Shown in pieces: positions 7,484 through 35,703 of a DNA stretch of 62,967 nt. The position numbers and the translations under genes were made by a program. Source of the DNA: a virus. The DNA lies in the UHGV virus genome UHGV-0240508; one strand, written 5' to 3'. Position 1 is the stretch's first letter, and each line of letters opens with the position of its first letter. The notes under the pieces are model-generated. The model was not told the origin of the DNA. It ran no database searches and saw only the letters and a program-made list of their open reading frames with translations.

Positions 7484-8989
7484 ATGAGAAAGTATGGGGA
7501 CGCCATATCAATGGCGCTGGTGGCGAAGGCTATCTCCACAGACTACGGCGTTACCGTAGATGTGGTGCCCGGTGTTGCGACGGCTATGACTGGGGTGACG
7601 AGCGATGGCGGCAAGAAGATTATCATCCCTGCCATCGAGGAGACGGGCGAGAAGTATCTCACGTATCTGCGCGGGTATATCGACCATGAAGCCGGACATG
7701 TGCGCTTTACCGACGACGGGGTAGATATAAAGGGCCTCGGCCCGCTTGAACGGCATCTGTGGAACATCTTTGAAGACTGCTTCGTAGAGCGGCGTATGTC
7801 CCGCGCCTTTGCAGGATGCGGGGCGAATCTGCGGCGGCTCGTCTTGGAGATATTCGACAAGGACGACGAACTTGCAACGGACATGCCGGGGCTTGCCGTG
7901 AACTACTGCCTTATCCGGGCGCGTGCGGTGGACGTACCTGCGTTGGAATCGCGGGCGAAAGCGTGCGGGGAGCGGCTCGATGCCGCCGTGCCCGGCCTGA
8001 CCGAACGACTTGAGGACGCGCTTATCAGCGGGGCACGGTCGGAGAGCACGAAGGGATCGAAGGACCACGCCCTGCACGTGGCCGAGATTCTCCGGGATGC
8101 GGGCGTCGATATGCCGAGTGACGCGATGAAGGGGAACGAGGGGGACGGAGATGCTTTCGCCGACGCCGTCAAGAAGGCGATTGCCGAGCAGGTCGAAGCC
8201 AGCGGAGCGCCCGAGCCCGAGCAGATGGAGCGGTATACGGCGGGATGCGCCGGGAATGACGGCCGGGACCGCGACCGTCTGCTTGAGGAGCTTACGCCCA
8301 ACGACATCTATGCGGCGCGCAAGGAGACGGGTGTGCTCGATGCCCGCCTGCGCTCGCTCTTGCAGACCGTCGCCCTGAATCGGGAAGGAGGTTTTCGTCG
8401 GGGCAGGCTCGATTGCAATAAGCTCCACCGTCTGGCCGTAAATAATGCGCGGGTCTTCGCCTCGCGTGTGGAGAAGATATCGCTCAATACCGAGATAGGT
8501 ATGGTGGTCGACATGTCGGGCAGCATGTCGGGCGAGAAGGCGGTCGTCACTTCACGCTCACTCTTCGCCGCCATGTCGAGCCTGCGCAAGCTCCCCGTCT
8601 CCGTCCGCTCGTTTGCGGTGGGATTCTCGGGGAACGCTACCGTCGACATCCTCGACCCGCACGAGCCGCTCAGAATGCAGATGCGCATCGTCCCGAGCGG
8701 CGGGACGTCGTGCGGCGAGGGCGTCGTCAGAGCGTTGATGAAGTTCGTGCCGGGGTCGGACTCGAGAAAGATTATTTTCATCCTTACCGACGGCAGGACA
8801 TACAACGAGGAATACTTCAGACTTATCATCGAGCGGTGCGCGGCGCACGGCGTGGAACTTTACGGCTTCGGTATCTGCGACGACGGGTTGCGGGACTTTA
8901 TGCCGCCAGCAAGATGGCGCCGCGTAGATGATGTGAAGGCACTGCCGGCCGCCATGTTCGGGATGCTTCGCCAAGCTTTCGGAGTATAG
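7484..8989 (+). CDS. cobT-like: von Willebrand factor A domain protein, CobT-like
   Basis: MIDAS motif DMSGSMSG followed by TDG in the C-terminal vWA-like region. ORF 7280..8989 trimmed to ATG 7484 (GGAG upstream). Adjacent to the CobS-like ATPase. Confidence 0.7.
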   Translation: MRKYGDAISMALVAKAISTDYGVTVDVVPGVATAMTGVTSDGGKKIIIPAIEETGEKYLTYLRGYIDHEAGHVRFTDDGVDIKGLGPLERHLWNIFEDCFVERRMSRAFAGCGANLRRLVLEIFDKDDELATDMPGLAVNYCLIRARAVDVPALESRAKACGERLDAAVPGLTERLEDALISGARSESTKGSKDHALHVAEILRDAGVDMPSDAMKGNEGDGDAFADAVKKAIAEQVEASGAPEPEQMERYTAGCAGNDGRDRDRLLEELTPNDIYAARKETGVLDARLRSLLQTVALNREGGFRRGRLDCNKLHRLAVNNARVFASRVEKISLNTEIGMVVDMSGSMSGEKAVVTSRSLFAAMSSLRKLPVSVRSFAVGFSGNATVDILDPHEPLRMQMRIVPSGGTSCGEGVVRALMKFVPGSDSRKIIFILTDGRTYNEEYFRLIIERCAAHGVELYGFGICDDGLRDFMPPARWRRVDDVKALPAAMFGMLRQAFGV

Positions 8990-20670: not shown

Positions 20671-20671
20671 A

Positions 20672-20705
20672 ACAAAGGCCCTCGTATGAGGGCCTTTGTT
20701 TGTTA
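20672..20705. terminator. bidirectional intrinsic terminator between convergent gene blocks
   Basis: Perfect 12-bp stem acaaaggccctc/gagggcctttgt with loop GTAT, followed by TTGTTTGTT. Confidence 0.65.
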
Positions 20706-20740
20706 AATGCATCGTAAAATCCCCCTTTAGAGGGAGGATG

Positions 20741-21511
20741 TCAATCTTCGATTTCCGCATCCAGAAAATTCTGGATGACGGGGATGACGCCGGTGTCCCA
20801 TTTCAACTGGCGGATGGGGGTACCGTCGGAATGGAGCTTGCCTGTATCGAGCATCACGGCATAGGCCGTCCCCATACCGATGGGTTCCCATTTGCCGTTC
20901 GTGATTTTCGTCTGGAAGTTCATAGCCGCAAGGACACTGTTTACCGCTCGCGGCGGCAGGCCGCCGAGCGCCTTGCCTAGCTCCGTCGGGTTGAGAATCT
21001 GCCGCTTGGTGGGCGCTTCGAGTGCCACTTCCACAGTCTCCAGAAAAGAATATCCCGCTTCACGCCGGTAGACTTTATCGAGAGAAAGCGCGGCCTGATT
21101 GCCGGTAATGCCAGCAACACGAAGAATGATGGCAGCAGCTTCGATCTTGGCAGGAAACTCCGGCAAAGACTGCTGCGTCCCACGCTGGAGTTCGGCTTCC
21201 ATCCGGTTGAACTCGGCAATATAGGCTTCCTTGAACCGCATGGCTTCGGGCGTTGTGTACGCCATCGCTACCATCGTGAAGCCGTCTTTGGTCATAAGAT
21301 ACATTGGCCGGGATTTACCCTGTTCATCGAGGTATTCAGCTCCCTCAAAATTGAGGGCGCAAAATGATTTCGAACACTTAGCTACGGTTTCCCGGATATC
21401 ACGAAGCACATTGTAGTGCTCCTTCCCAAACACCTCGGCCAACTGTTGCGAAGTGACCGCCGGAACCTGCTTGCCATTCACATTTTCGAGCTTGACAATT
21501 ATGCCGTTCAT
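20741..21511 (-). CDS. antirepressor: Rha N-terminal domain plus KilAC (AntB-like) C-terminal domain
   Basis: N-terminus VTSQQLAEVFGKEHYNVLRDIRE is the Rha signature. C-terminus HSDGTPIRQLKWDTGVIPVIQNFL is KilAC-like. Start set at ATG 21511 (AAAGGA nine nt upstream) rather than the ORF-track 21562. Confidence 0.75.
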   Translation of the reverse strand: MNGIIVKLENVNGKQVPAVTSQQLAEVFGKEHYNVLRDIRETVAKCSKSFCALNFEGAEYLDEQGKSRPMYLMTKDGFTMVAMAYTTPEAMRFKEAYIAEFNRMEAELQRGTQQSLPEFPAKIEAAAIILRVAGITGNQAALSLDKVYRREAGYSFLETVEVALEAPTKRQILNPTELGKALGGLPPRAVNSVLAAMNFQTKITNGKWEPIGMGTAYAVMLDTGKLHSDGTPIRQLKWDTGVIPVIQNFLDAEIED

Positions 21512-21604
21512 ATGTACTGTCCTTTTCGTGGTTAGAGATTCTTGCGAATGTGAGAACCTCATACCCCCGTTGGATATGTAGTTCGCACCTTCTTTCTAAC
21601 GGTA

Positions 21605-21635
21605 GACCCCCCAAGCTGTCAAGGCTTGGGGGGTC
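21605..21635 (-). promoter_or_regulatory. hairpin with 12-bp G/C-rich stem and loop TGTCAAG (TTGACA on the coding strand), then TAGAAA 18 nt downstream; putative promoter/operator of the Rha antirepressor
   Basis: gaccccccaagc-TGTCAAG-gcttggggggtc. Same loop and TTGACA-N18-TAGAAA layout as the element at 22465-22501. Confidence 0.5.
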
Positions 21636-21641
21636 TTGTTT

Positions 21642-22379
21642 TTATTTGCGGTAGCTTGCCAGAAGTGTGGGGTCTATGTCGAGCAGCCGCTCCATGTCAT
21701 CGATGATATCCGTGCGGTAGACATTCACCTCCTCCCATCGGCTGTCGGGAGACTTCTTAATCTCGGCACCACGCATACGCGAGCATGACGCCAGAAACTT
21801 TCCGATGGCCGCACAGGTCCTCGGAGACGTGTCGATGAAGTAGTGCTTGAGCCACGGGATGGCGGTTACAGCTTTCCATTCCCGCGCGTTGCCGATGACG
21901 ATTTCAAGCATCTCTTTTTCTTCCGTCAGTTGCTGGTTGGCGGCGGTGAGGGCGAGGTTCTTCTCATACTCGTCAGCCCAAGCCCGCGCCGCTTCAGCAG
22001 GGTTGGTGAAGTCGGGAAGCGTTGTAGAATACTCGCCCGTCTTGCGAATGGCTGGAAGAACTTCTTCACAAACCCAGTCTTGAAAGGCCACCGCGTTCGG
22101 AAGATTCGAGCGCATCACGAGGCGATAGACATCGGATTCAGGGATGATATTCATCACAACTGGAGGCATCTTTGATGAGATTTCCCGTCCCCCTAAATCA
22201 GGTGAAAGGGTGATTTTATTTATCTTTTTACAGTGAGTGTTAATAGCATTAGCTGGATTGTCGTAGCCGAGAGACTTTGCTACATCTGAAGCCACGAACC
22301 ACGGATCATCTCCCTGCATGACCACGCGCACGGAACCGAATTCTTCTTTCTCAAAAATCTTGACATCTGTGCTACTCAT
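21642..22379 (-). CDS. Bro-N domain antirepressor-like protein
   Basis: FGSVRVVMQGDDPWFVASDVAKSLGYDNPANAI is a typical BRO-N/KilA-N segment. RBS AAAGGAA upstream. Confidence 0.75.
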   Translation of the reverse strand: MSSTDVKIFEKEEFGSVRVVMQGDDPWFVASDVAKSLGYDNPANAINTHCKKINKITLSPDLGGREISSKMPPVVMNIIPESDVYRLVMRSNLPNAVAFQDWVCEEVLPAIRKTGEYSTTLPDFTNPAEAARAWADEYEKNLALTAANQQLTEEKEMLEIVIGNAREWKAVTAIPWLKHYFIDTSPRTCAAIGKFLASCSRMRGAEIKKSPDSRWEEVNVYRTDIIDDMERLLDIDPTLLASYRK

Positions 22380-22464
22380 TGATAGTTTCCTTTTGCTGAG
22401 TTTCTAAACGCCAGAGGCTCTCCACCCCCGCTAGATGAAGACGCTTGACACCATCTTTTCTAGC

Positions 22465-22501
22465 AAAGAACTCCCTGAACTGTCAAGGTTCGGGGAGTTC
22501 T
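22465..22501 (-). promoter_or_regulatory. second hairpin with loop TGTCAAG (15-bp stem, 1 mismatch) and TTGACA-N18-TAGAAA layout, upstream of the Bro-N gene
   Basis: aagaactccctgaac-TGTCAAG-gttcggggagttctt. TAGAAA complement at 22456-22461. Confidence 0.5.
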
Positions 22502-22522
22502 TGTATTAAGGGTTTGGCACAA

Positions 22523-22564
22523 TGAAAAAACTCCCGCATCGGGGGAGCGGACCCGATGCGGGAG
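22523..22564 (-). terminator. intrinsic terminator of the minus-strand virion operon
   Basis: Perfect 14-bp stem actcccgcatcggg/cccgatgcgggagt, followed on the minus strand by TTTTTT. Confidence 0.7.
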
Positions 22565-22615
22565 TCAGGCCGTATGCCGCTGTGCGCGGTGCGGCACCAG
22601 ACCCGATTCCTGAAT

Positions 22616-23284
22616 CTACTCGGCCTTCTTATACTTCGGCGGGTAGATGCAAAAAGTGGGTTGCACGAGCGCGACATGCCCGTTGCAGTTTGTAGCTGCA
22701 ACGCTCACAGAGACACGAAGCGGCATGACGTTCTCATAGGTGTCGGCAGCCACAGGTATCATACTGGGCGCGAGGCCCTCGAAGTACACGAGGTTCGTGT
22801 CCTGTCGGGCCGTAATCCAGTCATTGTCCCCGATATCTATGGCAATCGTCATGGGCTGGTCACCGGTGAATCCTACGGAGCCATGCCAGTACTGGCCGCT
22901 CTCTACGTCAGGCATGGCAACGCTTGCTACGGCGGCCGGGCGGCATTCGCATGGTTTGTCGGAACAGCAGTCATAGGAACAGATGAGATCCTTGACGGCT
23001 GCAATGAGTGCGGGCTGCACCAATGTAATGCAGGACCCGTACGGATGTCGAAGGGGCTCGGTGCCTTCGATGCCACGGTCAACAACAAGCAGGCCGTCGA
23101 CGTTCATGATTTTTACCGCCTCATACTTGGCGTCGCTGCGGATGCTCGCAAAGGTGTAGTCTCCGTCATCCGACAGGAGCGCCTTCAAATCATTCAGTGC
23201 GCCCGGCAGGAGAGGAAGTGCGCGGTCGTCTTTCTGCATGGCTTCGTCGAGTCGTGCCGTGAAAATCTCGTTTTTGTAGCTCAT
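22616..23284 (-). CDS. hypothetical virion-module protein (222 aa)
   Basis: Last ORF of the minus-strand operon before the terminator. Confidence 0.5.
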   Translation of the reverse strand: MSYKNEIFTARLDEAMQKDDRALPLLPGALNDLKALLSDDGDYTFASIRSDAKYEAVKIMNVDGLLVVDRGIEGTEPLRHPYGSCITLVQPALIAAVKDLICSYDCCSDKPCECRPAAVASVAMPDVESGQYWHGSVGFTGDQPMTIAIDIGDNDWITARQDTNLVYFEGLAPSMIPVAADTYENVMPLRVSVSVAATNCNGHVALVQPTFCIYPPKYKKAE

Positions 23285-24033
23285 GACAGCTTGCCCTCCA
23301 GCACTACAACACGAACCAGCAGGTCGCCTACGACTGATTGCAGCCTCTCGACTGCGGACTCAAGCTCGGCAATCTCCGCCGAATGGTCTGTACCGGGGAT
23401 GCCTTGCGGTCCCATCGGTCCGGCGGGGCCTTGCATACCGGTGTCGCCCTTTGGCCCGGCAGGACCCATTGGGCCGGTATCACCTTTCTCGCCCTTGTTG
23501 CCTTTCTCGCCTTTTTCTCCGGGTGCACCGGTTGCCCCGCGCAGCCCGCGTTCACCCGTGTTGCCCTTGGGTCCCTGCGGCCCCATCGGACCCTCGACAC
23601 CCTGCGGTCCCATCGGCCCGGCGACACCGCGGGGACCGGCAGGACCAGCGGGACCGGCAGGGCCGACGTCCCCCTGAGGCCCGGCTACGCCCTGCACGCC
23701 GGGGACGCCGCGAGGCCCGGTATCGCCGGTGCCGCCCTTGGGTCCGCGTTCGCCCGTGTCGCCCTTTTCTCCCTGCGGCCCACGGGGGCCGGCCGGTCCC
23801 ATCTGTCCCTGAGAACCCGTATCGCCCTTGGGACCCTGTGCGCCCGTCGCACCGGTCTGTCCCTTCTCTCCCTGCTCTCCACGCACGGGTGTGTCCCACA
23901 TAAGCCGGGTAGGGGAGTTTTCGGTATAGGCCAGCACCGCGCCCTCGAATGGGTCGGGAGGCAGAGGAATGCCGCAATGATGGTAAGGAAAAGGCGGATG
24001 CCCGCAGCCGCAATGGTTGTCGTGAATACCCAT
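23281..24033 (-). CDS. collagen-like triple-helix repeat protein (about 60 GXY triplets) with C-terminal coiled coil; tail-fibre candidate
   Basis: Continuous GXY run (GEQGEKGQTGATGAQGPKGDTG...). Start set at ATG 24033, which has GGAGA seven nt upstream. Confidence 0.7.
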   Translation of the reverse strand: MGIHDNHCGCGHPPFPYHHCGIPLPPDPFEGAVLAYTENSPTRLMWDTPVRGEQGEKGQTGATGAQGPKGDTGSQGQMGPAGPRGPQGEKGDTGERGPKGGTGDTGPRGVPGVQGVAGPQGDVGPAGPAGPAGPRGVAGPMGPQGVEGPMGPQGPKGNTGERGLRGATGAPGEKGEKGNKGEKGDTGPMGPAGPKGDTGMQGPAGPMGPQGIPGTDHSAEIAELESAVERLQSVVGDLLVRVVVLEGKLS

Positions 24034-24035
24034 AA

Positions 24036-24635
24036 TTATTCTCCACAGAGGTCGAGCGCAAAATCCACGGCCGCCTCGTCGATGAAGTGTTCTCCGCAAG
24101 CCGGAGTAATGTCGATATCGAACCGCGCCAATACGCAGATTTCAGGCGGGCGGCAAGGGGGAGGCGGCGGGGCCGGAGGATTCCCGCCGCACTCCATGCC
24201 GATATCGTAGCCGTCCGGAAGAATCGGGGCGGCTTTCGGCGGCTTGCGCGGAATACCGTGTACGTCAAGAAACACAGGGGTGAGATTATGCGGCATGAAC
24301 CGCACAATGCCTGTGTGACGTCCGGGGCGCAGCATGGGGAAGAACGGCCCGAGCAAAAAGACGACACGTCCTTCGTCGTCAAGTTCAAAGGCATCGCTGA
24401 CCACGACGGGGATGTCGCCCATCGGCACATCATTGAGGTCGACATCCGTCCGCACGCCGGGCCAGCATCCGTGGAAGTACCACGGCGACGCTTCCGGACC
24501 GCAACAGGGGGAGGCGTCAATTTGCCCGGGGATGATGCAAAGTTGCAGATGTTTCCAGTCAGACACCTGCCCGCCGCCGTAGGAGCGGATGCGGACAGCC
24601 AGCCGGGTAGCGTCTTTGGCAAGAGGGAGAATCAT
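24036..24635 (-). CDS. hypothetical structural protein (199 aa) with a poly-Pro stretch
   Basis: ORF with ATGA overlap to the upstream gene. Confidence 0.5.
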   Translation of the reverse strand: MILPLAKDATRLAVRIRSYGGGQVSDWKHLQLCIIPGQIDASPCCGPEASPWYFHGCWPGVRTDVDLNDVPMGDIPVVVSDAFELDDEGRVVFLLGPFFPMLRPGRHTGIVRFMPHNLTPVFLDVHGIPRKPPKAAPILPDGYDIGMECGGNPPAPPPPPCRPPEICVLARFDIDITPACGEHFIDEAAVDFALDLCGE

Positions 24636-27600
24636 CTGCGGCTCCGCGCATCATTGTAGTAGTTGAGATTGTTCAGGACGGAAGCATACACTTCTCCTTC
24701 CTGTTCCGCAAGCGCTTCGAACTGTTCCCGAAGTTCCGACGTGTCCGCAGCCGACAGCCATGTGTTGCGCATGTCTTTGGAAAACGACTGGCTCTTGCTG
24801 CGCAACGCAGACTTCGCCGCCCGCAGGAGAAGGTAATCATCGATATCCGCCTCGCCCCATCCGGCAGCCGACAGCTTCTCGGTCAGGTAAGCTTCCTTCG
24901 CCGTCGCATCTCTGCTGATTGCCGCAGGGATGGCGACATCTACAGCTTCCCTGCGGATACGGCCTTCAAATTCTTCGAGCGCATTGTAGTACATGGCTTG
25001 ATTGGTGGCGTGTTTTTCTCCGTAGAACATGGTGCCGCCGAATGCTTCGAGCACAGGTCCGAGCGTTTCGCGCGCACTGCCTTCCTGATGTCCCTTTCTC
25101 GTTTCTCCGGCCGGTTCGATATACAGTGAACGCAGGAGCCTCAGAGGGCCGACGAGCAGGCCGTCTGCAAGCGTCTTCAGTTGCTCGGGCGCAAGGTCGT
25201 ACCCGGTCGTCTTCAGCAGCTCCTTCGCCACATCGTGGTAGAACTTCGGCGTAGACATCTTGCCTTGTACGGCCATCGACTTCGTTTCTTCATTGGTGGC
25301 CCACGTCACCTTGCCGCCCCAATAATTCCGATTGGTAGCCGTCTGCACGAGGCCGGACAGGATGCTTGGGGAAATGGCCTGCATAATCCAAGCTGTAGGA
25401 TCTTTCGCCATGTCGAAATTCGGCTTCCCCGTAGGCGAGGTGTTGTCGAAGAGCGTGAAAAGCAGTTCGCCTGCGAAATGCTCGGGGGCCATGAGGCCGC
25501 GTTCCACACGGTCATGGCCAACGGCCAGCGTTATGATGAGCTGCTGGATGCCGAAGCCAAAAGGAATCTTCGCATACCCACCCTTGCCGTCTCCAATGGG
25601 GAGCGCCCGTTGCAATTCCGACAGGGACATCTGGTCGAAACGGCTCATGCCCGTATCTTCATCGTAACCCATCGACTCCTTAAGGAGCGGCAAGAGCGCC
25701 GTAACCGCAGCATAACCGCCGAGGATGGTCGCTGCTGCGCGGGGGCCGCGGCTGCGCAGGTCCTTCACATCACCCGTGATGCCGAGAGTACGCATCATGG
25801 CCATGCCGCCCTGCACCGTGGGTTTCACGAAGGGAAAAAGTACACGCAGGATTGGTGTCCACTCGCCCGTCTGGTAAAGGTTCATAAGCTCGAGTGTACC
25901 GTGCGCCGCCTGTCTGGGATCGACACCGGCCTTGCGCAGGGTGACGAACTGATTGAAACTCGCAAGGTTATTGAAATAGTCATTCCAGCCGTCCAGCGTT
26001 TCCAATACCCACTTGCCGTTGCCCTGCACACCATCAAGCGCCTGTTTGAGCCCGGCGTATTCAGGCTTGTTGATGAGCGCCGCAATGCCTTTCTTTTGCT
26101 GCGCGACCGACTGCTTGCCGCCCATCATATCTTCGAGGGACAGCCGCTCGGTATTGAGCTGTGCCATATATTTCTGGTACAGGCCATATTGCTCGTATTC
26201 ACGCCAGTACTGTGCGCCCATGCTGTTCGGGTCGAGTGTCCCCGAGAGAGCCCGATGCAGCTCGACTCCCGAAGCAGGAGCATTTACGAGGAACGACCCG
26301 GTCAGCCGCCAGCCCGGGATGCGGTTGCCGTTCCCGTCGTAATATTCACGTGTAAGCATATGGATGCCGCGCTCGGCTACGTCGCGGAAAGTGTTCACTA
26401 CGGCGAATGCTGGCGTAAAACGTGTGAACGCCTGACTGTAGACGCTCGTCACCTTGGCAAGCCCCGACACTGCCCGTTCAAGGCCCGTCGCCGCCTTGCT
26501 TGTATTCTGCAAGGCACGGGAGACGGCAATGCCTGTCATTCCGGTACGTGCATCCGTCCAGTTCTCGTCGATGTAATAGGCTCTGCGCTGCATATGGGAG
26601 AAGTTGCCGTTCCAGTCATGGACCGGGACGTCGACTACGATGGCGCGGGAGAGGAGGTTCGAATAGTAATTGCGGTAAGCCACATCGGGGCTGTTGGCCT
26701 TGGCCGTCAACTGGCTGTAGTTTTCCCACCTGAGCCCCGTATCACGGTTACGCTCCGACGCTACCCGTTCCATCGATGCCAGCATCATACCGAAGTCGCG
26801 CATACCGAACTCGTTTGCCGCCCGGCGTGCGTACTGAAAGACCGTATAGTACGCGCTGTCTGGCGAACCCTGCCTGCCCTGAATGGCTTCATATCTGCCC
26901 GGGTTGTACCCGGTAAGGTCGTTGACGGCACCGACGAGGTTATTGGCGCGGGAGAGGACCGGCACATAGGTCTGGAACGCAGGGAAAGCTCGTGCCTGTT
27001 CCGGCGTCACAGTCCCCCACGATGCGCGGTCATTTGTAATCTGCACGGCAATAGAGCTCAGCCGGTCGCTGAACGCTTCCGCTTCTTCGCGCGTGACGCC
27101 GAGGGAGAGCACATGGTCCATGACCATACGCGCCTGCCCGTTCGTCATGCCGCCGTGAAAGACATGTTCCGGCGGGTCGACGGAATTGATGTGCTGTCTG
27201 AGGTCACGAATTTTTGTAGATATATCCGCTACTTTCACAGGGTCGTTTTCAAGCTGTGCTGCGGTGAGTTCCGCTTCCCATCGATTCAGAAGCAGCGTGT
27301 TGCGTTCGCCCATGTGCCGGGCGGTGGCGTAGTGCCCCATTGTCGCCGCCAGTTGTTCGGCGTCCATCCCCAAGCGTTCGGCAATAGGACGTACGGACAA
27401 CAAAAGGTCCTGCCGCTGGCGGTCGTAAATCTGGAATTGCCCACGGATCTTCGTAGGCATCAGCTCGAATTCCTTCACAATACGGTTGTTCATGACCGAC
27501 TTACCGGGGTCGGCAAAATTGTAGGCCACGAACTTGTGGAAATCCGCACGGTCATTGACGAGCCGTTTGAATGTGGAATTGACGAAGTCGAACCACTTGC

Positions 27601-27982
27601 TTGTTTCTGCGACCGAAGAGCCGTTCACATAGGCATAGGCGTTTTCCCAGTCGTTTGCGAGCTTCTCCCTCGAAAGCATCGCATTGTTCGTGAGCTTCGC
27701 CACCTGCCGTGCGGCGCGCATAAGCTGCGAGGCGTCCGTGCGGTTCACGTCGTTGCCCGGAGCTGTAAGGCTCGTGGGCCGCCCCGTCCCGGGCGCAATG
27801 AGATTGCGCAGCCGTGTGAAGATACCGGCACGCTGTGCCGCATCGCGCTGCACTCCATCCCGCAAGTCGATGATCTCGTCATTCATATTGCGGATGGGGC
27901 GTCCGTCCTCGAAGATACCGCCGTTGCCATGCGGCCCCTGCCCCGCCTTGTAGACGGAAAAATCATCCGGGCATCCGTTCAT
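24632..27982 (-). CDS. large virion protein (about 1116 aa); internal, ejection or tape-measure-like (unassigned)
   Basis: Very long ORF with ATGA overlaps on both sides. No enzymatic motif recognised. Confidence 0.55.
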   Translation of the reverse strand: MNGCPDDFSVYKAGQGPHGNGGIFEDGRPIRNMNDEIIDLRDGVQRDAAQRAGIFTRLRNLIAPGTGRPTSLTAPGNDVNRTDASQLMRAARQVAKLTNNAMLSREKLANDWENAYAYVNGSSVAETSKWFDFVNSTFKRLVNDRADFHKFVAYNFADPGKSVMNNRIVKEFELMPTKIRGQFQIYDRQRQDLLLSVRPIAERLGMDAEQLAATMGHYATARHMGERNTLLLNRWEAELTAAQLENDPVKVADISTKIRDLRQHINSVDPPEHVFHGGMTNGQARMVMDHVLSLGVTREEAEAFSDRLSSIAVQITNDRASWGTVTPEQARAFPAFQTYVPVLSRANNLVGAVNDLTGYNPGRYEAIQGRQGSPDSAYYTVFQYARRAANEFGMRDFGMMLASMERVASERNRDTGLRWENYSQLTAKANSPDVAYRNYYSNLLSRAIVVDVPVHDWNGNFSHMQRRAYYIDENWTDARTGMTGIAVSRALQNTSKAATGLERAVSGLAKVTSVYSQAFTRFTPAFAVVNTFRDVAERGIHMLTREYYDGNGNRIPGWRLTGSFLVNAPASGVELHRALSGTLDPNSMGAQYWREYEQYGLYQKYMAQLNTERLSLEDMMGGKQSVAQQKKGIAALINKPEYAGLKQALDGVQGNGKWVLETLDGWNDYFNNLASFNQFVTLRKAGVDPRQAAHGTLELMNLYQTGEWTPILRVLFPFVKPTVQGGMAMMRTLGITGDVKDLRSRGPRAAATILGGYAAVTALLPLLKESMGYDEDTGMSRFDQMSLSELQRALPIGDGKGGYAKIPFGFGIQQLIITLAVGHDRVERGLMAPEHFAGELLFTLFDNTSPTGKPNFDMAKDPTAWIMQAISPSILSGLVQTATNRNYWGGKVTWATNEETKSMAVQGKMSTPKFYHDVAKELLKTTGYDLAPEQLKTLADGLLVGPLRLLRSLYIEPAGETRKGHQEGSARETLGPVLEAFGGTMFYGEKHATNQAMYYNALEEFEGRIRREAVDVAIPAAISRDATAKEAYLTEKLSAAGWGEADIDDYLLLRAAKSALRSKSQSFSKDMRNTWLSAADTSELREQFEALAEQEGEVYASVLNNLNYYNDARSRR

Positions 27983-30795
27983 CGCGTCACGCACCATATG
28001 TTGTTGTAGACCGATTCAATCGTTTCACGAGTATTCTTTTCGGCTTCGGGAACCGCATCAAGCACCGCATCGACACCAAGCGCTCTTGCATCCAGATAGT
28101 CGTTGTGCATTCGTTCGAAAGACCCTCTAAGGTTCGCCAGTTCGGGATGGACTTTGGCAAACGCATCCCATTCCGTACCGGAGGGCACGCCTTTCTGGAT
28201 GAGCTTCTTTATCGCAGGCCATGTACTTGCATTGAAGCCGTTCACTCCATTCGCGGCGTCCATATCGACGGCGTTCTTGATCCGCGTCAGAGTGACCGCC
28301 ATGTCCGCCAGTTCGGATGCACGGGGGCTTACCTGTTCATTCCTGCCAGTGCCGCCTGTGCCTCCAGTGCCGCGTTCGCTTCCGCTTCTCTGACCGCCAA
28401 AGACTCCTGCGCCAGCACCCGGTTCCTGAACTCGGGTTCCTGCTGTTGCAGGACTTGGTCCGCCGTCGGTTCCCGTTCCGGTATCAAGCCGCGCTTGTGG
28501 AGCATCTGCATCAGGCGCTTGACTCGGTCCGATGTTCTGTTGCGCGGCCCCGCCAAGCCCTCCGCTTTCAACTGTTCCACCATTTCGAGGAGTGACTGGA
28601 GCGCCTGCGTCGGCAGGGGTTTGAGCAACACTTCGGGTATTGGCTTCCATTCCGCGATTGCCTTGATTATCTGGAAGATAAGCTGCTCTTGCTCGTCCTT
28701 CTCCATTTGCGTCCAACCGGGGAGCTGGCGCGCCATTGCCGCCCTGTCCGTCGCCGCCTTGTCTGCCATTGCTCAGCTCCTGCTGTCTCGCTTCAATGAT
28801 TTCATCCAGAATGCCGACCGATTCAACCTTCGTGGCTCTCTTGAGTTTCGCATTGGAAAGTGCGTCACGAAGCTTCTCCGGCGAAACGCCATTCCCCACG
28901 ACATCCGTGAGCAGCTGTTTGTACAGCGCGGGTTCCCCCGGATGCTTTCTGAGGAAGCTGACAAGCTTGTCCGTGTCAAATTCCGTCGTTGGGCGTTCAT
29001 CAGGCCGGAAGACCTGACGCTGCGTATCCTGCCGCATGGCGGCATCAAAGAGTTCGCCTACACGCTTTTCGTCGAAGATCTTCGGATTTTGCTGGTGTGC
29101 GCGGTCGATCCAGTCTTTCAGCAGCGCGCGGTTGTTGCCGGTACGTTCAAGAAAGGTAGATACGATGTTGTCGGCGTCGAATTTGACCCCGCCGTCTACC
29201 GCCGTCGCCACGGCATTATACAATTGGCCCGGATACGAGAACCGGTTGACGCTTCCATCCGGCATAAGAAACGATTCCGTTCCATCCATGACGAGGTCAA
29301 GCCCGGGTGTCTGCGGTGTCGAAACCCCTCCTTCGGGACCGGAAGCTGCCGAAGTCCTGTCAGCTGTCGCACGAGGTGCGTCGCTTCGCCCTTCTGTCGT
29401 ATCTTTGGCAGGCGACGACGCAGTGCGGCGACGACGCGCACCCAAAATGCCGAATGGTACGCCTGCGGCAATAGAAGCGGCGAGCGCTTCCGGCACCCCC
29501 TCGGTCACGGCATTGTCCTGCCCCGTGACCGAATTGTATAGAGCGTTCTGCGCCACCACGTCGCCTACGTTGATGATGGAAGCTTCTGCTGCGGATTCGC
29601 CAATTGACTTTGCAAGCCGCTTGGCAAGCCCTTCCTGCGAGCGGCGCAAGGCCGCATCGACCACGGCATCCTCGGCAGTTTTCGCCGCCGCCTTTGCCCC
29701 GCCACGCAAGAAGGGGCGGGCTGCTGCACCGGCGATACGACCGACCGGAATGGTCAGGCCGCCGAAAACCGCACCGGTTGTAGCCGCACCCGCAAAGCCT
29801 TCCTCGATGGCACGCGCCTTTTCTTCTTCGGAGAGATTCGGGTCCTGCTCAACACGGGAAACATATTCGCTCCCCTCTACTCCCGCACCAACGCCAGCGC
29901 CGGCCAGCCCCGCAGCGATGGCAGGAATGGCCGCGCCGCCGGTAAGTGCCGAGGCAGCCGCCGCAGCCCCCATCGCCACCGGAGCCGTCGGGTCACTGGC
30001 AAGTTCGACGCCCGCGTTGGTCACGAGCCCGCCGATACCGTCCGAACGCTGCCAGAATCCCTGCCCTTCCTGCTCTCGGAGCATCTGTTCTTGCAGGTAG
30101 GGGTTCTCGCGCCGGATGTTTTCAAGGTCCGCCTGAAGCTCGGCATTGAGCTTGCGCTTCGTTTCGGCGTCTTCGCCCATCTGTGAGATGCCGGTAACGA
30201 GCTTGTTGCCGCCCATGCGCGCGGCATCCCACACAGTTTCCCAAAAGCCTGTAGAATCGATGGCCTTGCGGCCTTCCTTTACTCGCTGCGTATAGGGCCT
30301 CAGGCTTTCTTCGATGGCTTTCAGTGCCTTCTGGTCATCGGTGCCGACGAGTCGCGGGATATCGTTCTTGCGGATATCGTCAAGAACTTTAGCCTGATAG
30401 TCGATGGATTTGCCCGACAGCCCGGCAAGCTTTTCCCGCACGTCCCTGTCGTTCTGCAAAAGCGAACTGTAGGCGGCGGATTCCATGACACCCTGATTGC
30501 GGGAACGTTCCTTCTCCGTCGAACCGGGGACCCAGACGAACCGATAACCTTCGGGGGATGCAGGGTCCGCTACCGCCGTCCATGCCCCACCTTTGCCGCC
30601 TGCACGCGGACCACCGGTGCCGCCTCCGGCTGCGAGCTTCGCCTGTTGCAATCCAAACTTGGCTTCGTTCAACGCCTGCTGGTCCTGTGCCAGCACGACC
30701 TTGGTCACGTCGGCCAGCGACTGGTTCTGTTGCTGCGTGAAGTCCGGCAAGAGTCTGATCGCGCCGGACAGCCCGCCCGGATTTGGCAAAGCCAT
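27979..30795 (-). CDS. large Gly/Ala-rich virion protein (938 aa) with hydrophobic Ala/Gly segments
   Basis: Long ORF with low-complexity A/G-rich stretches (AMGAAAAASALTGGAAIPAIAAGLAGAGVGAGV) and a Gly-rich C-terminal region. Confidence 0.5.
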   Translation of the reverse strand: MALPNPGGLSGAIRLLPDFTQQQNQSLADVTKVVLAQDQQALNEAKFGLQQAKLAAGGGTGGPRAGGKGGAWTAVADPASPEGYRFVWVPGSTEKERSRNQGVMESAAYSSLLQNDRDVREKLAGLSGKSIDYQAKVLDDIRKNDIPRLVGTDDQKALKAIEESLRPYTQRVKEGRKAIDSTGFWETVWDAARMGGNKLVTGISQMGEDAETKRKLNAELQADLENIRRENPYLQEQMLREQEGQGFWQRSDGIGGLVTNAGVELASDPTAPVAMGAAAAASALTGGAAIPAIAAGLAGAGVGAGVEGSEYVSRVEQDPNLSEEEKARAIEEGFAGAATTGAVFGGLTIPVGRIAGAAARPFLRGGAKAAAKTAEDAVVDAALRRSQEGLAKRLAKSIGESAAEASIINVGDVVAQNALYNSVTGQDNAVTEGVPEALAASIAAGVPFGILGARRRRTASSPAKDTTEGRSDAPRATADRTSAASGPEGGVSTPQTPGLDLVMDGTESFLMPDGSVNRFSYPGQLYNAVATAVDGGVKFDADNIVSTFLERTGNNRALLKDWIDRAHQQNPKIFDEKRVGELFDAAMRQDTQRQVFRPDERPTTEFDTDKLVSFLRKHPGEPALYKQLLTDVVGNGVSPEKLRDALSNAKLKRATKVESVGILDEIIEARQQELSNGRQGGDGQGGNGAPAPRLDANGEGRARAAYLPDNQGNRGMEANTRSVAQTPADAGAPVTPRNGGTVESGGLGGAAQQNIGPSQAPDADAPQARLDTGTGTDGGPSPATAGTRVQEPGAGAGVFGGQRSGSERGTGGTGGTGRNEQVSPRASELADMAVTLTRIKNAVDMDAANGVNGFNASTWPAIKKLIQKGVPSGTEWDAFAKVHPELANLRGSFERMHNDYLDARALGVDAVLDAVPEAEKNTRETIESVYNNIWCVTR

Positions 30796-35023: not shown

Positions 35024-35440
35024 TCATTCATTCGTATCATCGCCAAGATATTTGCGCAAGGCTTCGAGGATGCTTGAATCCCATTTCAACTGACGAATAG
35101 GAGTCCCATCTGAGTGGCGTTTGTTCACATCCAGCATTACGGCGTAAGGCATTCCTTTCTCAGTAGGCTCCCAACCACCGTTCGGAGCCTTCGTCTGAAA
35201 GCCTATATTGACGAGAAGGTCGTTCATCTGCCGCCCCGATATACCGTCGCACTTCTCACCAAGCTGTGTGGGCGTGAGAAGCTGCCGCTTGGTTGGCGCT
35301 TCAAGTTGAACCTCGGCAAGCTCAAGCGGAGAATCGCCGGTCTTCTTTCACACGATCTTATCGAGCGCAAGCGCTTGCTGATTACCGACGATACCTGCCG
35401 CATTGAAGATGGCGACCGTCAAGGAAGAGGAGGGTTCCCA
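35024..35440 (-). pseudogene. degraded duplicate of the antirepressor C-terminal region (KilAC domain): intact 67-aa tail ORF plus upstream frames with an in-frame stop
   Basis: 35024..35227 encodes ...YAVMLDVNKRHSDGTPIRQLKWDSS... versus the antirepressor ...YAVMLDTGKLHSDGTPIRQLKWDTG... Upstream frames give IFNAAGIVGNQQALALDKIV-stop and LEAPTKRQLL, matching ILRVAGITGNQAALSLDKVY and LEAPTKRQIL of 20741..21511. Confidence 0.6.
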
Positions 35441-35518
35441 TTTGACACCGATTCACATCTGCACTATATTTTTCTTACCCACCCTATCTCCACCTTCCTA
35501 GATGGCCCCCGCCATCAA

Positions 35519-35556
35519 CAAACCCCCGACAATCCGTTTCGTGATTGTCGGGGGTT
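35519..35556. terminator. hairpin cccccgacaatc-CGTTTCGT-gattgtcggggg with flanking T-runs; terminator at the distal end of the lysis cassette
   Basis: Perfect 12-bp stem. T-rich tails on both strands. Confidence 0.5.
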
Positions 35557-35559
35557 CGC

Positions 35560-35703
35560 TTATTTCTTTTTGCCGCGGTATTGTTGATAGGCTACCGCGA
35601 GCCGCTGTTTTTGTGTGGGAAATTCCTTGGCCGCATTCGACTTCATGAAGCGCTCGACGAACGCCTGTCTTGTCTCTCCCTTCTTTGGTGTGGGCAGTGG
35701 CAT
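35560..35703 (-). CDS. 47-aa Lys-rich small protein
   Basis: Not in the ORF track (under 60 aa). ATG two codons after the stop of the previous gene. No clear RBS. Confidence 0.25.
   Translation of the reverse strand: MPLPTPKKGETRQAFVERFMKSNAAKEFPTQKQRLAVAYQQYRGKKK

What the first reader, a model, noticed from the sequence alone, without database searches (positions are those of the whole stretch)
20741..22501. Two antirepressors, each behind a hairpin with an identical TGTCAAG loop that embeds a TTGACA -35 box
A Rha+KilAC antirepressor (20741-21511) and a Bro-N antirepressor (21642-22379) sit back to back on the minus strand, between the replication block and the virion operon. Each is preceded by a G/C-rich hairpin (21605-21635 and 22465-22501). 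The stem sequences differ, but both have the same 7-nt loop TGTCAAG, so on the coding strand the loop reads CTTGACA, which contains a -35 hexamer. Both then have TAGAAA exactly 18 nt downstream. A promoter whose -35 sits in the loop of a stable hairpin suggests structure-dependent or operator-controlled expression. Antirepressors normally act against a CI-type repressor, yet no repressor, integrase or excisionase core is recognisable here. Possible explanations are that the phage targets a host or co-resident prophage repressor, that these are Bro-like late regulators, or that they are remnants of a temperate ancestry.
Basis: partly seen in the sequence, partly recalled or inferred. Interest (0 to 1): 0.65.

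Follow-up and report, generated by a model that had tools for sequence, protein, structure and literature searches.

The report
Hairpin-embedded promoter cassettes driving antirepressor-like genes
Two accessory regulator genes of an uncultured gut phage each carry the same portable 140-base control cassette, whose promoter -35 box sits in the loop of a conserved hairpin; this resembles promoter/stem-loop cassettes already described in T4-type phages, so it is a neat variant rather than a new principle.

Summary
Both hairpins exist (22500-22468 and 21636-21604, minus strand). Both have the loop CTTGACA, and both have TAGAAA exactly 18 nt after TTGACA. The genes are a Rha-family and a Bro-N-family protein. 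The KilAC call for the first gene is not supported.

The two upstream regions are paralogous copies of one ~140-nt cassette. Six distinct copies exist in about a dozen related gut phage genomes. The 13-bp stem is kept by compensatory changes in 9 of 13 pairs. The cassette occurs only in front of these genes. It comes and goes as an indel: gene A plus its hairpin is missing in four relatives.

Each hairpin has an A-tract on its 5' side, so it reads as a canonical terminator only for antisense transcription. Every cassette gene also carries an antisense CTTGACA at codons 6-9. One natural variant has the 7-nt loop flipped, which removes the -35.

Best reading: moron-type promoter/stem-loop cassettes like the PeSLs of T4-type phages. 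A sar-like cis-antisense RNA is the main rival.

No repressor or integrase was found among about 60 proteins scanned. Interest is moderate.

The parts
22468..22500 (-). Hairpin 1: 13-bp inverted repeat with one C.A mismatch and the 7-nt loop CTTGACA (22487-22481). It can extend to 22466-22502.
   Evidence: (-19.7 kcal/mol, z -5.0).
22457..22486 (-). Predicted promoter of gene B. The -35 is TTGACA (22486-22481), followed by an 18-nt spacer, a TGc extended -10 and the -10 TAGAAA (22462-22457).
   Evidence: The elements are conserved in six cassette copies. The -10 lacks the final T, so the consensus scan does not list it.
22429..22465 (-). Second inverted repeat (helix 2). TGCTAGA (22465-22459, overlapping the -10) pairs with TCTAGCG (22435-22429).
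   Evidence: RNAalifold; 97.6% of cells paired against 17-43% in slid controls, with one compensatory pair.
22501..22510 (-). A-rich tract 5' of hairpin 1, weak in this copy (CTTAATACAA).
21642..22379 (-). Gene B, a Bro-N family protein of 245 aa.
   Evidence: PF02498, 1.8e-24. (PHROG anti-repressor families).
22359..22365 (+). Antisense CTTGACA inside codons 5-7 of gene B, followed by 17 nt and TAGTTT (22383-22388). It is either a candidate -35 of an antisense promoter or a pairing partner of the loop.
22444..22450 (+). A further antisense CTTGACA in the gene B leader, with no -10 partner.
21604..21636 (-). Hairpin 2: perfect 13-bp inverted repeat with the loop CTTGACA (21623-21617). On the plus strand it is followed by TGTTTTTATTT.
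   Evidence: flags it as terminator-like on the plus strand.: -27.2 kcal/mol sense and -29.3 antisense.
21593..21622 (-). Predicted promoter of gene A: TTGACA (21622-21617), an 18-nt spacer and TAGAAA (21598-21593).
21568..21601 (-). Helix 2 of cassette A. CGTTAGA (21601-21595) pairs with TCCAACG (21574-21568), with one A.C mismatch and one compensatory pair relative to the other copies.
21637..21647 (-). A-tract AAATAAAAACA, which contains the gene B stop codon. On the plus strand it is the U-tract that follows hairpin 2.
20741..21511 (-). Gene A: a Rha-family N-terminal domain plus a rare C-terminal domain, 256 aa.
21491..21497 (+). Antisense CTTGACA inside codons 5-7 of gene A, followed by 17 nt and TACTGT (21515-21520).
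   Evidence: An overlapping TTGCCA-17-GACAAT was flagged.
20716..20737 (-). Short hairpin plus TTTTA directly after the gene A stop codon, a weak terminator of the gene A cassette.
   Evidence: Not flagged by the scan.
20671..20700 (.). 13-bp perfect hairpin between the converging gene A block and the plus-strand replication block. It looks like a bidirectional terminator.
22529..22566 (-). Canonical intrinsic terminator of the upstream 222-aa gene. It lies about 25 nt before hairpin 1.
35413..35436 (-). Remnant of a third cassette: A-tract, 5' arm and loop CTTGACG only. The rest was removed by a deletion between two TGACGGTCG repeats.
35024..35412 (-). Pseudogene: the C-terminal half of a gene A paralogue, 54% identical to gene A residues 129-250, with an in-frame stop. 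It is intact in relatives L086-L089.

Best explanation
Each of the two genes is an autonomous accessory ('moron'-type) unit. It travels with a conserved regulatory cassette of about 140 nt.

The cassette, 5' to 3':
- an A-rich tract;
- a G/C-rich 11-13 bp inverted repeat whose 7-nt loop is the -35 element, CTTGAC(A/G);
- an 18-bp spacer made largely of the 3' arm;
- a TGc-TAGAnA extended -10, which is itself one arm of a second short inverted repeat;
- a leader of about 78 nt;
- a Shine-Dalgarno sequence and the start codon.

Inferred mechanism:
- Host sigma-70-type RNA polymerase starts the mRNA a few bases after TAGAnA, so the mRNA does not contain the hairpin.
- The hairpin is a structural part of the cassette and not a sequence-specific operator.
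- Together with its flanking A-tract (a U-tract on the other strand), the hairpin insulates the cassette. It is a canonical intrinsic terminator for transcription entering from the gene side, and at best a leaky block for transcription from upstream.
- The same palindrome makes the promoter unusually mutable and recombinogenic. This shows as a loop flip, arm deletions and cassette gain or loss.

Shown: the anatomy, the paralogy, the covariation, the restriction to these genes, the indel polymorphism and the natural promoter variants.

Inferred: promoter activity, termination and its direction, and any effect of the hairpin on promoter strength.
For: Anatomy:
- Exact CTTGACA-N18-TAGAAA occurs twice and nowhere else in the window.
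- The hairpins are stable.
- The two upstream regions are homologous over about 140 nt.

Cassette family:
- Six distinct cassette copies were found in related gut phage genomes.
- All six have TTGAC[AG]-N18-TAGAnA, and 5 of 6 have TGc before the -10.
- For the 13-bp helix, 87% of cells are paired and 9 of 13 pairs show compensatory changes. No shuffle out of 500 reached this, and slid controls gave 38-59%.
- A covariance model of the cassette scores only the two loci in the window, at 86.7 and 83 bits, with everything else below 20 bits. It found no other contexts in 31 related loci.

Mobility:
- Gene A plus hairpin 2 is absent in contigs 168214 and 172979 and in L216 and L206. There gene B abuts the terminator directly.
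- The locus has lower GC, 0.53 against about 0.59.
- L010 shows domain shuffling: a Bro-N N-terminus fused to the gene A-type C-terminus.

Orientation of terminator features:
- On the antisense strand, hairpin plus T-run is flagged as terminator-like for hairpin 2 and for L010a.
- By my own count of the flanking sequences, 5 of 6 copies have at least 5 T in the 8 nt after the stem on the antisense strand.
- No copy has a T-run on the sense strand.

Host promoter type and precedent:
- A canonical TTGACA-17-TATCTT promoter at 61123 and a TTGACA-17-TATATT promoter at 35442 show that sigma-70-type promoters occur in this genome.
- PeSL cassettes of T4-type phages are sigma-70 promoters with an AT-rich upstream tract and a G/C stem-loop. 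The stem-loop may overlap the -35 or the -10. They are conserved over about 100 bp and flank dispensable ORFs that come and go (PMC2839356; PMC4122927).
Against: - The -10 hexamer TAGAnA lacks the normally critical final T and the spacer is 18 nt. The promoter is therefore non-consensus and fails the scan.
- The host is unknown, so the relevant promoter consensus is assumed.
- Natural variants hit the promoter boxes themselves: TTGGCA, CTGACG, TAAAAA and TG>TA. This argues against strong purifying selection on promoter strength.
- No copy has a U-tract in the sense orientation, so the PeSL-style role of stopping upstream transcription is not supported by sequence.
- Helix 2 and the conserved antisense CTTGACA in each coding sequence are not explained by a simple promoter-plus-insulator model.
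- Stem maintenance could come from template switching and not from selection (PMC8794818).
- The indel junctions I could read are microhomology events, not cassette-to-cassette crossovers.
Confidence: 0.5

Rival explanations
1. Cis-antisense RNA control, as with P22 sar. The hairpin is primarily the intrinsic terminator of a roughly 110-nt antisense RNA. That RNA starts from a promoter whose -35 is the CTTGACA at codons 6-9 of each gene. It runs back across the leader and ends at the hairpin and U-tract. The sense -35 merely occupies the terminator loop. Face-to-face promoters about 125 bp apart would give transcriptional interference and RNA pairing that keep the regulator gene tightly off.
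For: - The U-tract lies on the antisense side in 5 of 6 copies, and two copies are flagged as terminators in that orientation.
- GTCAAG at codons 6-9 occurs in 6 of 6 cassette genes, against 1 of 91 other Rha or Bro-N loci.
- In the two Bro-N genes it sits at non-homologous codons.
- The distance from the loop is constant at 122-129 nt.
- TAnnnT lies 17 nt downstream of it for genes A and B.
- Helix 2 includes the -10, so it can only fold in an RNA that spans the promoter.
- The hypothetical antisense RNAs fold with z-scores of -5.1 and -4.7. The sense leaders give only -1.9 and 0.0.
- A nearby unit with the same logic exists: a consensus promoter and a hairpin/U-tract terminator on the antisense strand at 35442-35570.
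- Antirepressors of P22, P1/P7 and Phi24B are RNA-controlled (PMC12197685).
Against: - The antisense -10 is not conserved. It reads CATAAG or CATACA in four copies, and the consensus scan does not call it.
- The predicted antisense start lies upstream of the Shine-Dalgarno sequence, so the RNA would not cover the ribosome-binding site.
- Hairpin 1 lacks a good U-tract on the antisense side.
- The G.U versus C.A mismatch test shows no strand preference, with 2 against 2.
Confidence: 0.22
2. The inverted repeats are operators. A dimeric DNA-binding protein binds the palindrome centred on the -35, and the second palindrome over the -10, and represses or activates the promoter. Candidates are a host regulator or the Rha or Bro-N proteins themselves.
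For: - Palindromes lie exactly over both promoter hexamers.
- A few arm positions are invariant: C..CC....C / G....GG..G.
- Rha and Bro-N are DNA-binding-type domains (established knowledge; family hits).
- CTTGACA/TGTCAAG words are clustered, with 5 of the 11 in the window falling in 1 kb.
Against: - Nine of 13 arm positions differ between copies with compensation. That is the signature of a structure and not of a shared recognition sequence.
- No repressor-like protein was found.
- The GAAC-N7-GTTC in hairpin 1 has the wrong spacing for a Cheo-type LexA box and is absent from the other copies (sequence inspection).
Confidence: 0.1
3. A supercoiling sensor. Under high negative superhelicity the repeat extrudes as a cruciform. 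This puts the -35 into a single-stranded loop and shuts the promoter, as in the engineered promoter of Horwitz and Loeb (1988).
For: - A perfect 13-bp repeat with a 7-nt spacer is centred on the -35.
- It falls within the repeat and spacer range treated as cruciform-capable, and cruciform-mediated repression is documented (PMC6060812).
- Pairing is maintained with no RNA strand preference, which is consistent with a DNA-level role.
Against: - G/C-rich arms and a 7-nt loop extrude slowly (general knowledge).
- Several copies have mismatches or only 9-10 paired bases.
- Nothing tested here bears on supercoiling.
Confidence: 0.05
4. A sense-RNA element. In transcripts that read through from upstream, the hairpin loop CUUGAC(A/G) pairs with UGUCAAG at codons 6-9. 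This blocks translation of the regulator from read-through mRNA. Only transcripts started at the cassette's own promoter, which lack the hairpin, are translated.
For: - Loop and coding-sequence words are perfectly complementary over 7 nt in all copies.
- The loop alleles A>G (CUUGGCA, CUUGACG) keep the pairing through G.U.
- Hairpin 2 and L010b directly follow an upstream gene with no terminator, so such RNAs should exist.
Against: - Hairpin 1, hpP (the cassette in front of the gene A paralogue, L086-L089), L010a and L146 lie just after terminators.
- Seven base pairs over about 125 nt is a weak interaction.
- No covariation distinguishes this from the -35 reading.
Confidence: 0.05
5. No hairpin-specific function. 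The cassette is simply a duplicated weak promoter region. The palindrome is a selfish by-product kept perfect by replication template switching.
For: - Template switching creates perfect stems, multi-base 'compensatory' changes and loop inversions without selection (PMC8794818; PMC8604942).
- A loop inversion and an arm deletion are seen here.
- The promoter boxes vary among strains.
Against: - The repeat persists in six diverged copies whose arms differ at most positions.
- The -35 is always centred in the loop and the A-tract is always on the same side.
- Only one of the roughly dozen related assemblies, L218, has damaged the stem, and 10 bp remain there. The half-cassette at 35413-35436 lost its 3' arm through a deletion that also killed the gene.
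Confidence: 0.08

Closest known systems
PeSL (promoter-early stem-loop) cassettes of T4-type phages (Arbiol et al. 2010, PMC2839356; Comeau et al. 2014, PMC4122927)
   Same: - Composite intergenic motif conserved over about 100 bp.
- AT-rich tract that often holds the upstream stop codon.
- Sigma-70-like -35 and -10.
- G/C stem-loop that may overlap the -35 or the -10.
- Shine-Dalgarno sequence and start codon.
- Flanks dispensable genes that are present or absent between close relatives.
- Rearrangement breakpoints fall in or next to the loop.
   Different: - Here there are only 2-3 copies per genome, not dozens.
- All copies have the -35 exactly in the loop, plus a second repeat on the -10.
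- There is no U-tract for sense termination; terminator features face the other way.
- The phage is podovirus-like, not a T4-like myovirus.
- The cassettes are not homologous in sequence to PeSLs.
- PeSL-to-PeSL crossover and mini-circles were not shown here.
Morons of lambdoid and HK97-like phages (own knowledge: Juhala, Hendrix et al. 2000)
   Same: An extra gene with its own promoter and a downstream hairpin, inserted between two genes that are adjacent in relatives, with atypical base composition.
   Different: Classical morons are described in temperate phages and are expressed from the prophage. This genome shows no lysogeny module. The promoter-in-hairpin design is not part of the moron concept.
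P22 immI: Pant, ant and the sar antisense RNA; P1/P7 c4 RNA (PMC12197685)
   Same: An antirepressor-type gene under tight dedicated control. Here there are possible face-to-face promoters and a small antisense transcript that ends at an intrinsic terminator.
   Different: No antisense RNA has been shown here. The predicted RNA would not cover the ribosome-binding site. There are no Mnt or Arc repressors and no sequence similarity.
Engineered cruciform-regulated promoter (Horwitz and Loeb 1988, cited in PMC6060812)
   Same: A palindrome centred on the -35 region of a sigma-70 promoter, where extrusion would remove the -35 from duplex DNA.
   Different: That promoter was synthetic. Here the element is natural, with G/C-rich arms and a 7-nt loop, and no evidence of extrusion.
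Phage N4 virion-RNA-polymerase hairpin promoters (PMC4496689)
   Same: A promoter associated with a DNA hairpin.
   Different: N4 promoters have 5-7 bp stems and 3-nt loops (from my own knowledge; I did not read PMC4496689). They are read by a giant phage polymerase. No such polymerase is present here, and the elements here match sigma-70 hexamers.
Template-switch loop (spacer) inversions in hairpins (PMC8794818, PMC8604942)
   Same: The allele in contig 167164 is an exact reverse complement of the 7-nt loop between unchanged perfect arms.
   Different: In those studies the inversions are neutral footprints in RNA genes or coding DNA. Here the inversion removes a promoter -35.

Membership tests
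PeSL-type promoter/stem-loop cassette | Sigma-70-like -35 hexamer in a repeated intergenic motif | tested here: met
   TTGACA or TTGACG in all six copies.
PeSL-type promoter/stem-loop cassette | Sigma-70-like -10 hexamer at 16-18 nt | tested here: inconclusive
   TAGAnA lies at 18 nt. It matches 4 of 6 positions (3 of 6 for TAGACA) and lacks the final T. Five of 6 copies have TGc upstream. It is not called by the consensus scan.
PeSL-type promoter/stem-loop cassette | AT-rich tract upstream of the -35, often containing the upstream stop codon | tested here: met
   An A-rich tract is present in all copies. The gene B stop codon lies inside it at hairpin 2.
PeSL-type promoter/stem-loop cassette | Stable G/C stem-loop within or overlapping the promoter | tested here: met
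   The loop is the -35 in all copies.
PeSL-type promoter/stem-loop cassette | The stem-loop terminates or attenuates transcription from upstream | tested here: not met
   No U-tract follows the stem in the sense orientation in any copy. Terminator-like features are on the antisense strand. Function itself cannot be tested here.
PeSL-type promoter/stem-loop cassette | Flanks dispensable genes in plastic regions, with indels between close relatives | tested here: met
   - The gene A cassette is absent in 4 of 11 relatives.
- L010 carries tandem and chimeric cassettes.
- The window itself carries a deleted copy.
PeSL-type promoter/stem-loop cassette | Recombination between copies generates the indels or mini-circles | tested here: inconclusive
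   The one junction resolved is a 9-bp microhomology (TGACGGTCG) that starts in the loop. No cassette-to-cassette crossover was shown.
Moron | Gene present between two genes that are adjacent in a related phage | tested here: met
   Met for gene A. Not shown for gene B, which is present in all relatives examined.
Moron | Own promoter upstream and terminator downstream | tested here: inconclusive
   A promoter is predicted. The hairpin 20716-20737 plus TTTTA after gene A is weak and is not flagged.
Moron | Base composition differs from the surroundings | tested here: met
   GC is 0.531 for 20-22 kb, against 0.587 on both sides.
Intrinsic (Rho-independent) terminator | G/C-rich hairpin followed by a U-tract on the transcribed strand | tested here: inconclusive
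   On the sense strand no copy meets it. On the antisense strand hairpin 2 and L010a are flagged. By my own count 5 of 6 copies have at least 5 T in 8 nt.
Phage_pRha (PF09669 / TIGR02681) | Profile match above the curated cut-off | tested here: met
   Gene A scores 106.6 bits against a cut-off of 29.9, and 128.5 against 45.95.
Bro-N (PF02498) | Profile match above the curated cut-off | tested here: met
   Gene B scores 86.6 bits against a cut-off of 25.6.
ANT / KilAC domain (PF03374) | Profile match in the C-terminal half | tested here: not met
   There is no hit at E<=1 for either C-terminal half. Relatives of the gene A C-terminal domain carry no such annotation.
Invertible promoter switch (inverton) | Inverted repeats flanking a promoter-bearing segment that is found in both orientations | tested here: inconclusive
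   The 13-bp repeats flank the 7-nt -35 loop. Both orientations exist, but only across assemblies: 1 flipped among 7 carriers of hairpin 2. Within-population mixing cannot be tested.
Invertible promoter switch (inverton) | Site-specific recombinase encoded nearby; segment of roughly 100 bp or more | tested here: not met
   No recombinase or integrase domain was found among about 60 proteins. The segment is 7 nt.
sar-type cis-antisense control of an antirepressor | Antisense promoter within or next to the leader | tested here: inconclusive
   The -35 CTTGACA is conserved and cassette-specific. The -10 is good only for genes A and B.
sar-type cis-antisense control of an antirepressor | A small antisense RNA is detected and is complementary to the ribosome-binding site | not testable with these tools
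   No expression data are available. The predicted start lies about 16 nt upstream of the ATG, so the RNA would miss the Shine-Dalgarno sequence.

The most novel reading that the evidence does not exclude
The perfect 13-bp inverted repeat turns the -35 hexamer into a 7-nt invertible element. Replication template switching flips the loop at a useful frequency. This would give recombinase-free, heritable ON/OFF variation of individual regulator cassettes within a phage population. The TGTCAAG allele of contig 167164 would be the OFF state: it leaves the hairpin, and any antisense terminator function, intact.
Probability: 0.07. Interest if true: 0.8.

Novelty: new variant of a known kind. Interest (0 to 1): 0.42.

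Why it matters
If the cassette works as proposed, portable promoter/stem-loop modules are not peculiar to T4-type phages. They would be a recurrent way for unrelated phages to plug in accessory genes and keep them transcriptionally insulated.

The cassette also offers a clean natural test of how a hairpin centred on the -35 affects a promoter. Six copies with different stems are available, along with natural point variants in both promoter boxes and one loop-flip allele.

It also raises the question of what Rha- and Bro-N-type 'antirepressors' do in a phage that shows no lysogeny genes. They might act on resident prophages or on host regulators.

Tried and rejected
- **Rfam**, whole window at gathering thresholds: no hit.
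- **Closely related cultured phage:** none at the DNA level. Portal and primase give only 23-29% identity to podoviruses of Proteobacteria.
- **Cassette pattern in 185,579 representative genomes:** 19 matches, all without hairpins and judged to be chance.
- **Cassette patterns in IMG/VR:**
  - The strict pattern found only the same phage clade plus one coding-region chance match.
  - The looser pattern mostly hit a conserved coding stretch of marine phages.
- **Metagenome scan with a loop-agnostic stem pattern:**
  - Hairpin 1 always has the loop CTTGACA or CTTGGCA.
  - No second flipped loop was found.
- **KilAC:** rejected. PDB sequence searches were uninformative.
- **RNA strand test by G.U versus C.A mismatches:** symmetric at 2 against 2, so uninformative.
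- **LexA-type box:**
  - Hairpin 1 contains GAAC-N7-GTTC.
  - The spacing is wrong for a Cheo box and the word is not shared by the other copies.
- **N4-type hairpin promoter, integron attC and IS200/IS605 end hairpins:** considered and rejected on stem and loop dimensions and the absence of the matching enzyme. One relative does carry an IS200/IS605-like insertion in this locus.
- **Trans-acting small RNA from 35477-35570 as a general regulator of the cassettes:**
  - Complementarity is strong only to the gene B leader (-37.1 kcal/mol, z -3.7).
  - It is at background for the other five leaders.

Full report
**1. The observation**

On the minus strand the sequence reads ...caaGAACTCCCCGAAC-CTTGACA-GTTCAGGGAGTTCtttgcTAGAAAag... 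and ...aacaAGACCCCCCAAGC-CTTGACA-GCTTGGGGGGTCTaccgtTAGAAAga....

- The arms are 22500-22488 / 22480-22468 (13 bp, one C.A mismatch) and 21636-21624 / 21616-21604 (13 of 13 pairs).
- The pattern CTTGACA-N18-TAGAAA occurs exactly twice in the window, even with two mismatches allowed.
- As RNA the hairpins fold at -19.7 and -27.2 kcal/mol, with z-scores of -5.0 and -6.8.
- Only 13 hairpins with at least 10 paired bases exist in the 63-kb window.
- Gene A (20741-21511) is a Rha-family protein: Pfam 1e-30 and TIGR02681 1e-37.
- Gene B (21642-22379) has a Bro-N domain at 1.8e-24.
  - Neither C-terminal half hits Pfam ANT/KilAC, even at E<=1.
  - The gene A C-terminal domain has only 14 detectable relatives among 5.8 billion proteins. 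All are fused to Rha or Bro-N, and none carries an ANT annotation.

**2. Context**

- The two genes end a long minus-strand block. It runs from about 60.8 kb down and holds:
  - two collagen-like fibres;
  - terminase, portal and capsid genes;
  - internal virion proteins and a Peptidase_M15 lysin;
  - large proteins of 938 and 1121 aa.
- They converge on a plus-strand replication block. It holds:
  - an AAA_5/VWA pair;
  - a family A DNA polymerase;
  - a PD-(D/E)XK nuclease and an SNF2 helicase;
  - a DUF927 primase/helicase.
- A canonical terminator (22566-22529) precedes hairpin 1 by about 25 nt. A perfect 13-bp hairpin (20671-20700) separates the converging blocks.
- About 60 proteins were scanned with Pfam or PHROGs. 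None showed an integrase, excisionase or repressor-type domain.
- Portal and primase resemble only distantly (23-29% identity) those of 55-65 kb podoviruses of Proteobacteria.
- Near-identical contigs come from human gut samples.

**3. The two upstream regions are copies of one cassette**

They align over about 140 nt, from an A-rich tract to the start codon. Related genomes supply four more distinct copies:
- one (hpP) in front of a 64%-identical paralogue of gene A (L086-L089);
- two in tandem in L010;
- one in L146.

All six copies share these features:
- an A-rich tract;
- a C-rich 5' arm;
- the loop CTTGAC(A/G);
- a G-rich 3' arm;
- exactly 18 nt between TTGAC(A/G) and TAGAnA;
- a leader containing ATC(T/C)A(G/A)CG.

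Five of the six also have TGc just before the -10 hexamer.

The 13-bp helix is paired in 87% of cells, and 9 of 13 pairs show changes on both sides. No shuffle out of 500 reached this, and slid controls gave 38-59%. So the identical loop on different stems reflects common descent of a cassette whose stem is maintained, not two independent inventions.

A covariance model of the cassette scores 86.7 and 83 bits at the two loci. Everything else in the window scores below 20 bits. It found no further contexts in 31 related loci. The cassette is therefore specific to these regulator genes and is not the general promoter type of the phage.

It is absent from 185,579 representative bacterial and archaeal genomes. 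In IMG/VR it occurs only in this clade. Rfam has nothing.

**4. The cassettes behave as mobile or plastic units**

- Hairpin 2 plus gene A is missing in four relatives. There the gene B stop codon is followed directly by the convergent terminator.
- The locus has lower GC than its flanks, 0.53 against about 0.59.
- In L010 the first cassette drives a chimera of a Bro-N N-terminus with the gene A-type C-terminal domain. The second cassette drives a truncated Rha gene.
- In the window itself the third cassette is half-deleted.
  - A deletion of about 480 nt lies between two TGACGGTCG repeats. The first repeat starts in the loop.
  - It removed the 3' arm, the -10, the leader and 127 codons.
  - A pseudogene is left at about 35024-35412.
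- One relative (L220) carries an IS200/IS605-like element across genes B and A.

**5.

(a) *A second inverted repeat.* It pairs (T/C)G(C/T)TAGA, which overlaps the -10 hexamer, with TC(T/C)A(G/A)CG about 20-23 nt downstream.
- 97.6% of cells are paired, against 17-43% in slid controls, but there is only one compensatory pair.
- It cannot fold in an mRNA that starts after the -10.

(b) *Orientation of the terminator features.* The A-tract is always 5' of the hairpin on the coding strand.
- On the opposite strand the hairpin is therefore followed by a U-tract.
- Hairpin 2 and L010a are flagged as intrinsic terminators in that orientation.
- By my own count of the flanks, five of six copies have at least 5 T in the next 8 nt.
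- No copy has a U-tract in the sense orientation.

(c) *An antisense CTTGACA in each coding sequence.* Every cassette gene carries GTCAAG at codons 6-9.
- It lies 122-129 nt from the loop.
- It is cassette-specific: 6 of 6 here, against 1 of 91 other Rha or Bro-N loci, with a background of 0.018 per 105 nt.
- In the two Bro-N genes it sits at non-homologous codons.
- For genes A and B a TAnnnT hexamer follows at 17 nt. In the other copies the -10 is poor.

(d) *Natural variants hit the promoter.*
- Hairpin 1 loop TTGGCA in four assemblies.
- TAAAAA for the -10 in one.
- CTGACG in one copy of hpP, the gene A-paralogue cassette.
- TG>TA at the extended -10 in another.
- A 1-nt arm deletion giving a 17-nt spacer in L218.
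- All.

(e) *A flipped loop.* In IMG/VR contig 167164 the hairpin 2 arms and 150 nt of flanks are identical to the window, but the loop reads TGTCAAG.
- This is an exact 7-nt inversion that removes the -35 from the coding strand.
- It is the only flipped copy among seven assemblies that carry hairpin 2.
- No flipped hairpin 1 or hpP copy was found.
- Template switching is known to produce exactly such loop inversions, as well as multi-base 'compensatory' changes (PMC8794818; PMC8604942).
- An amplification or assembly artefact cannot be excluded.

**6. Mechanism**

The best-supported reading is an autonomous moron-type unit whose promoter is built into a hairpin-forming repeat.
- Host RNA polymerase would use TTGAC(A/G)-18-TGc-TAGAnA.
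- Canonical sigma-70-type promoters elsewhere in the genome make a sigma-70-type host polymerase plausible. Examples are TTGACA-17-TATCTT at 61123 and TTGACA-17-TATATT at 35442.
- The hairpin is structural, because its sequence is free to vary as long as it pairs.
- By sequence it acts as a terminator or insulator against transcription coming from the gene side.
- It also makes the promoter fragile.

The closest published analogue is the PeSL of T4-type phages. PeSLs are sigma-70 promoters with an AT-rich tract and a G/C stem-loop, which in some subclasses overlaps the -35 or the -10. They are conserved over about 100 bp, flank dispensable ORFs that come and go, and show breakpoints in the loop (PMC2839356; PMC4122927).

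The differences from PeSLs are:
- few copies per genome;
- strict placement of the -35 in the loop;
- a second repeat on the -10;
- terminator polarity facing the gene;
- an unrelated podovirus-like phage.

I give this reading 0.5.

The main rival (0.22) keeps the promoter. It makes the hairpin the terminator of a cis-antisense RNA launched from the CTTGACA inside the gene, in the manner of P22 sar (PMC12197685).
- For it: polarity of the U-tract, the cassette-specific antisense -35, helix 2, and the strong folding of the hypothetical antisense RNAs (z -5.1 and -4.7) against the sense leaders (-1.9 and 0.0).
- Against it: weak -10 elements in four copies, and a predicted start that misses the ribosome-binding site.

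The remaining readings are kept at low probability. They are an operator, a cruciform sensor, loop-to-coding-sequence pairing in read-through RNA, and a functionless palindrome maintained by template switching. The reasons are given in the rival entries.

**7. Verdict**

'Structure-dependent' is plausible. 'Operator-controlled' is unlikely. The puzzle of antirepressor-like genes in a phage without a visible repressor stands, but it rests on family labels only.
- Novelty: a new variant of a known kind, namely promoter/stem-loop cassettes and morons.
- Interest is moderate, 0.42.
- The most novel reading still open is recombinase-free phase variation by loop flipping, with a probability of about 0.07.

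Noticed in passing
window 35442-35570 (+): - There is a near-consensus promoter: TTGACA at 35442-35447, a 17-nt spacer and TATATT at 35465-35470. The same unit scores 11 of 12 in L086.
- About 45 nt later comes hairpin 35519-35558 followed by CTTATTTCTTTTT.
- Together they look like a roughly 90-nt small RNA, antisense to the late block and divergent from the third cassette.
- Its 5' part is strongly complementary to the gene B leader (-37.1 kcal/mol, z -3.7, 0 of 300 shuffles).
- It is not complementary to the other five cassette leaders.
   Followed up: partly
IMG/VR contig 167164 (L085 2879-2911; L006 3747-3779): The hairpin 2 loop is exactly inverted (TGTCAAG in place of CTTGACA) between unchanged arms and flanks. 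It is the only such allele among seven assemblies that carry hairpin 2.
   Followed up: partly
L220 about 1955-3710 (ERZ780128.46): An IS200/IS605-like element (TnpB-like and TnpA-like ORFs with hairpin ends) replaces the C-terminal part of gene B through the N-terminal part of gene A. This is an insertion sequence inside a phage genome, at this same plastic locus. I identified it by reading the sequence and did not run a profile search.
   Followed up: no
window 35024-35436 (-): A dead third cassette and pseudogene: a gene A paralogue that has lost its N-terminal half. A deletion of about 480 nt lies between two TGACGGTCG repeats, the first of which starts in the hairpin loop.
   Followed up: yes
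window 61333-61361 and 62063-62091: A 29-bp inverted repeat, 97% complementary, flanks the whole 224-aa ORF 61378-62052 (701 nt between the arms). It could be an invertible or mobile segment, or a long-range RNA structure.
   Followed up: no
window 62350-62900: - An AT-rich non-coding region with palindromes (62675-62754) and a long T-run.
- It has repeated words: CGCTCTAACGTTT / AAACGTTAGAGCG.
- TGCTACGTA also occurs at 61102, 62525 and 62867.
- It looks like an origin or a genome terminus.
   Followed up: no
L003 1123-1128 (ENA scaffold YOKO23-1): In this variant the gene A start codon is ACG. The hairpin 1 promoter reads TTGGCA ... TAAAAA. Several regulatory point changes are thus found in one strain.
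   Followed up: no
window 20741-21166 (-); L010 3340-3735: The C-terminal domain of gene A is a very rare domain, with 14 relatives among 5.8 billion proteins. It is found fused to either a Rha or a Bro-N N-terminus, which indicates domain shuffling within this phage clade.
   Followed up: partly
window 5981-8989 (+): A MoxR/CbbQ-type AAA_5 ATPase (5981-6961) lies next to a VWA/CobT-like protein (7280-8989) in the early/replication arm.
   Followed up: no
window 23281-24099 (-) and 56539-59826 (-): There are two collagen-repeat tail-fibre-like proteins. A 1121-aa protein with an LPD38 domain lies at 24632-27997.
   Followed up: no
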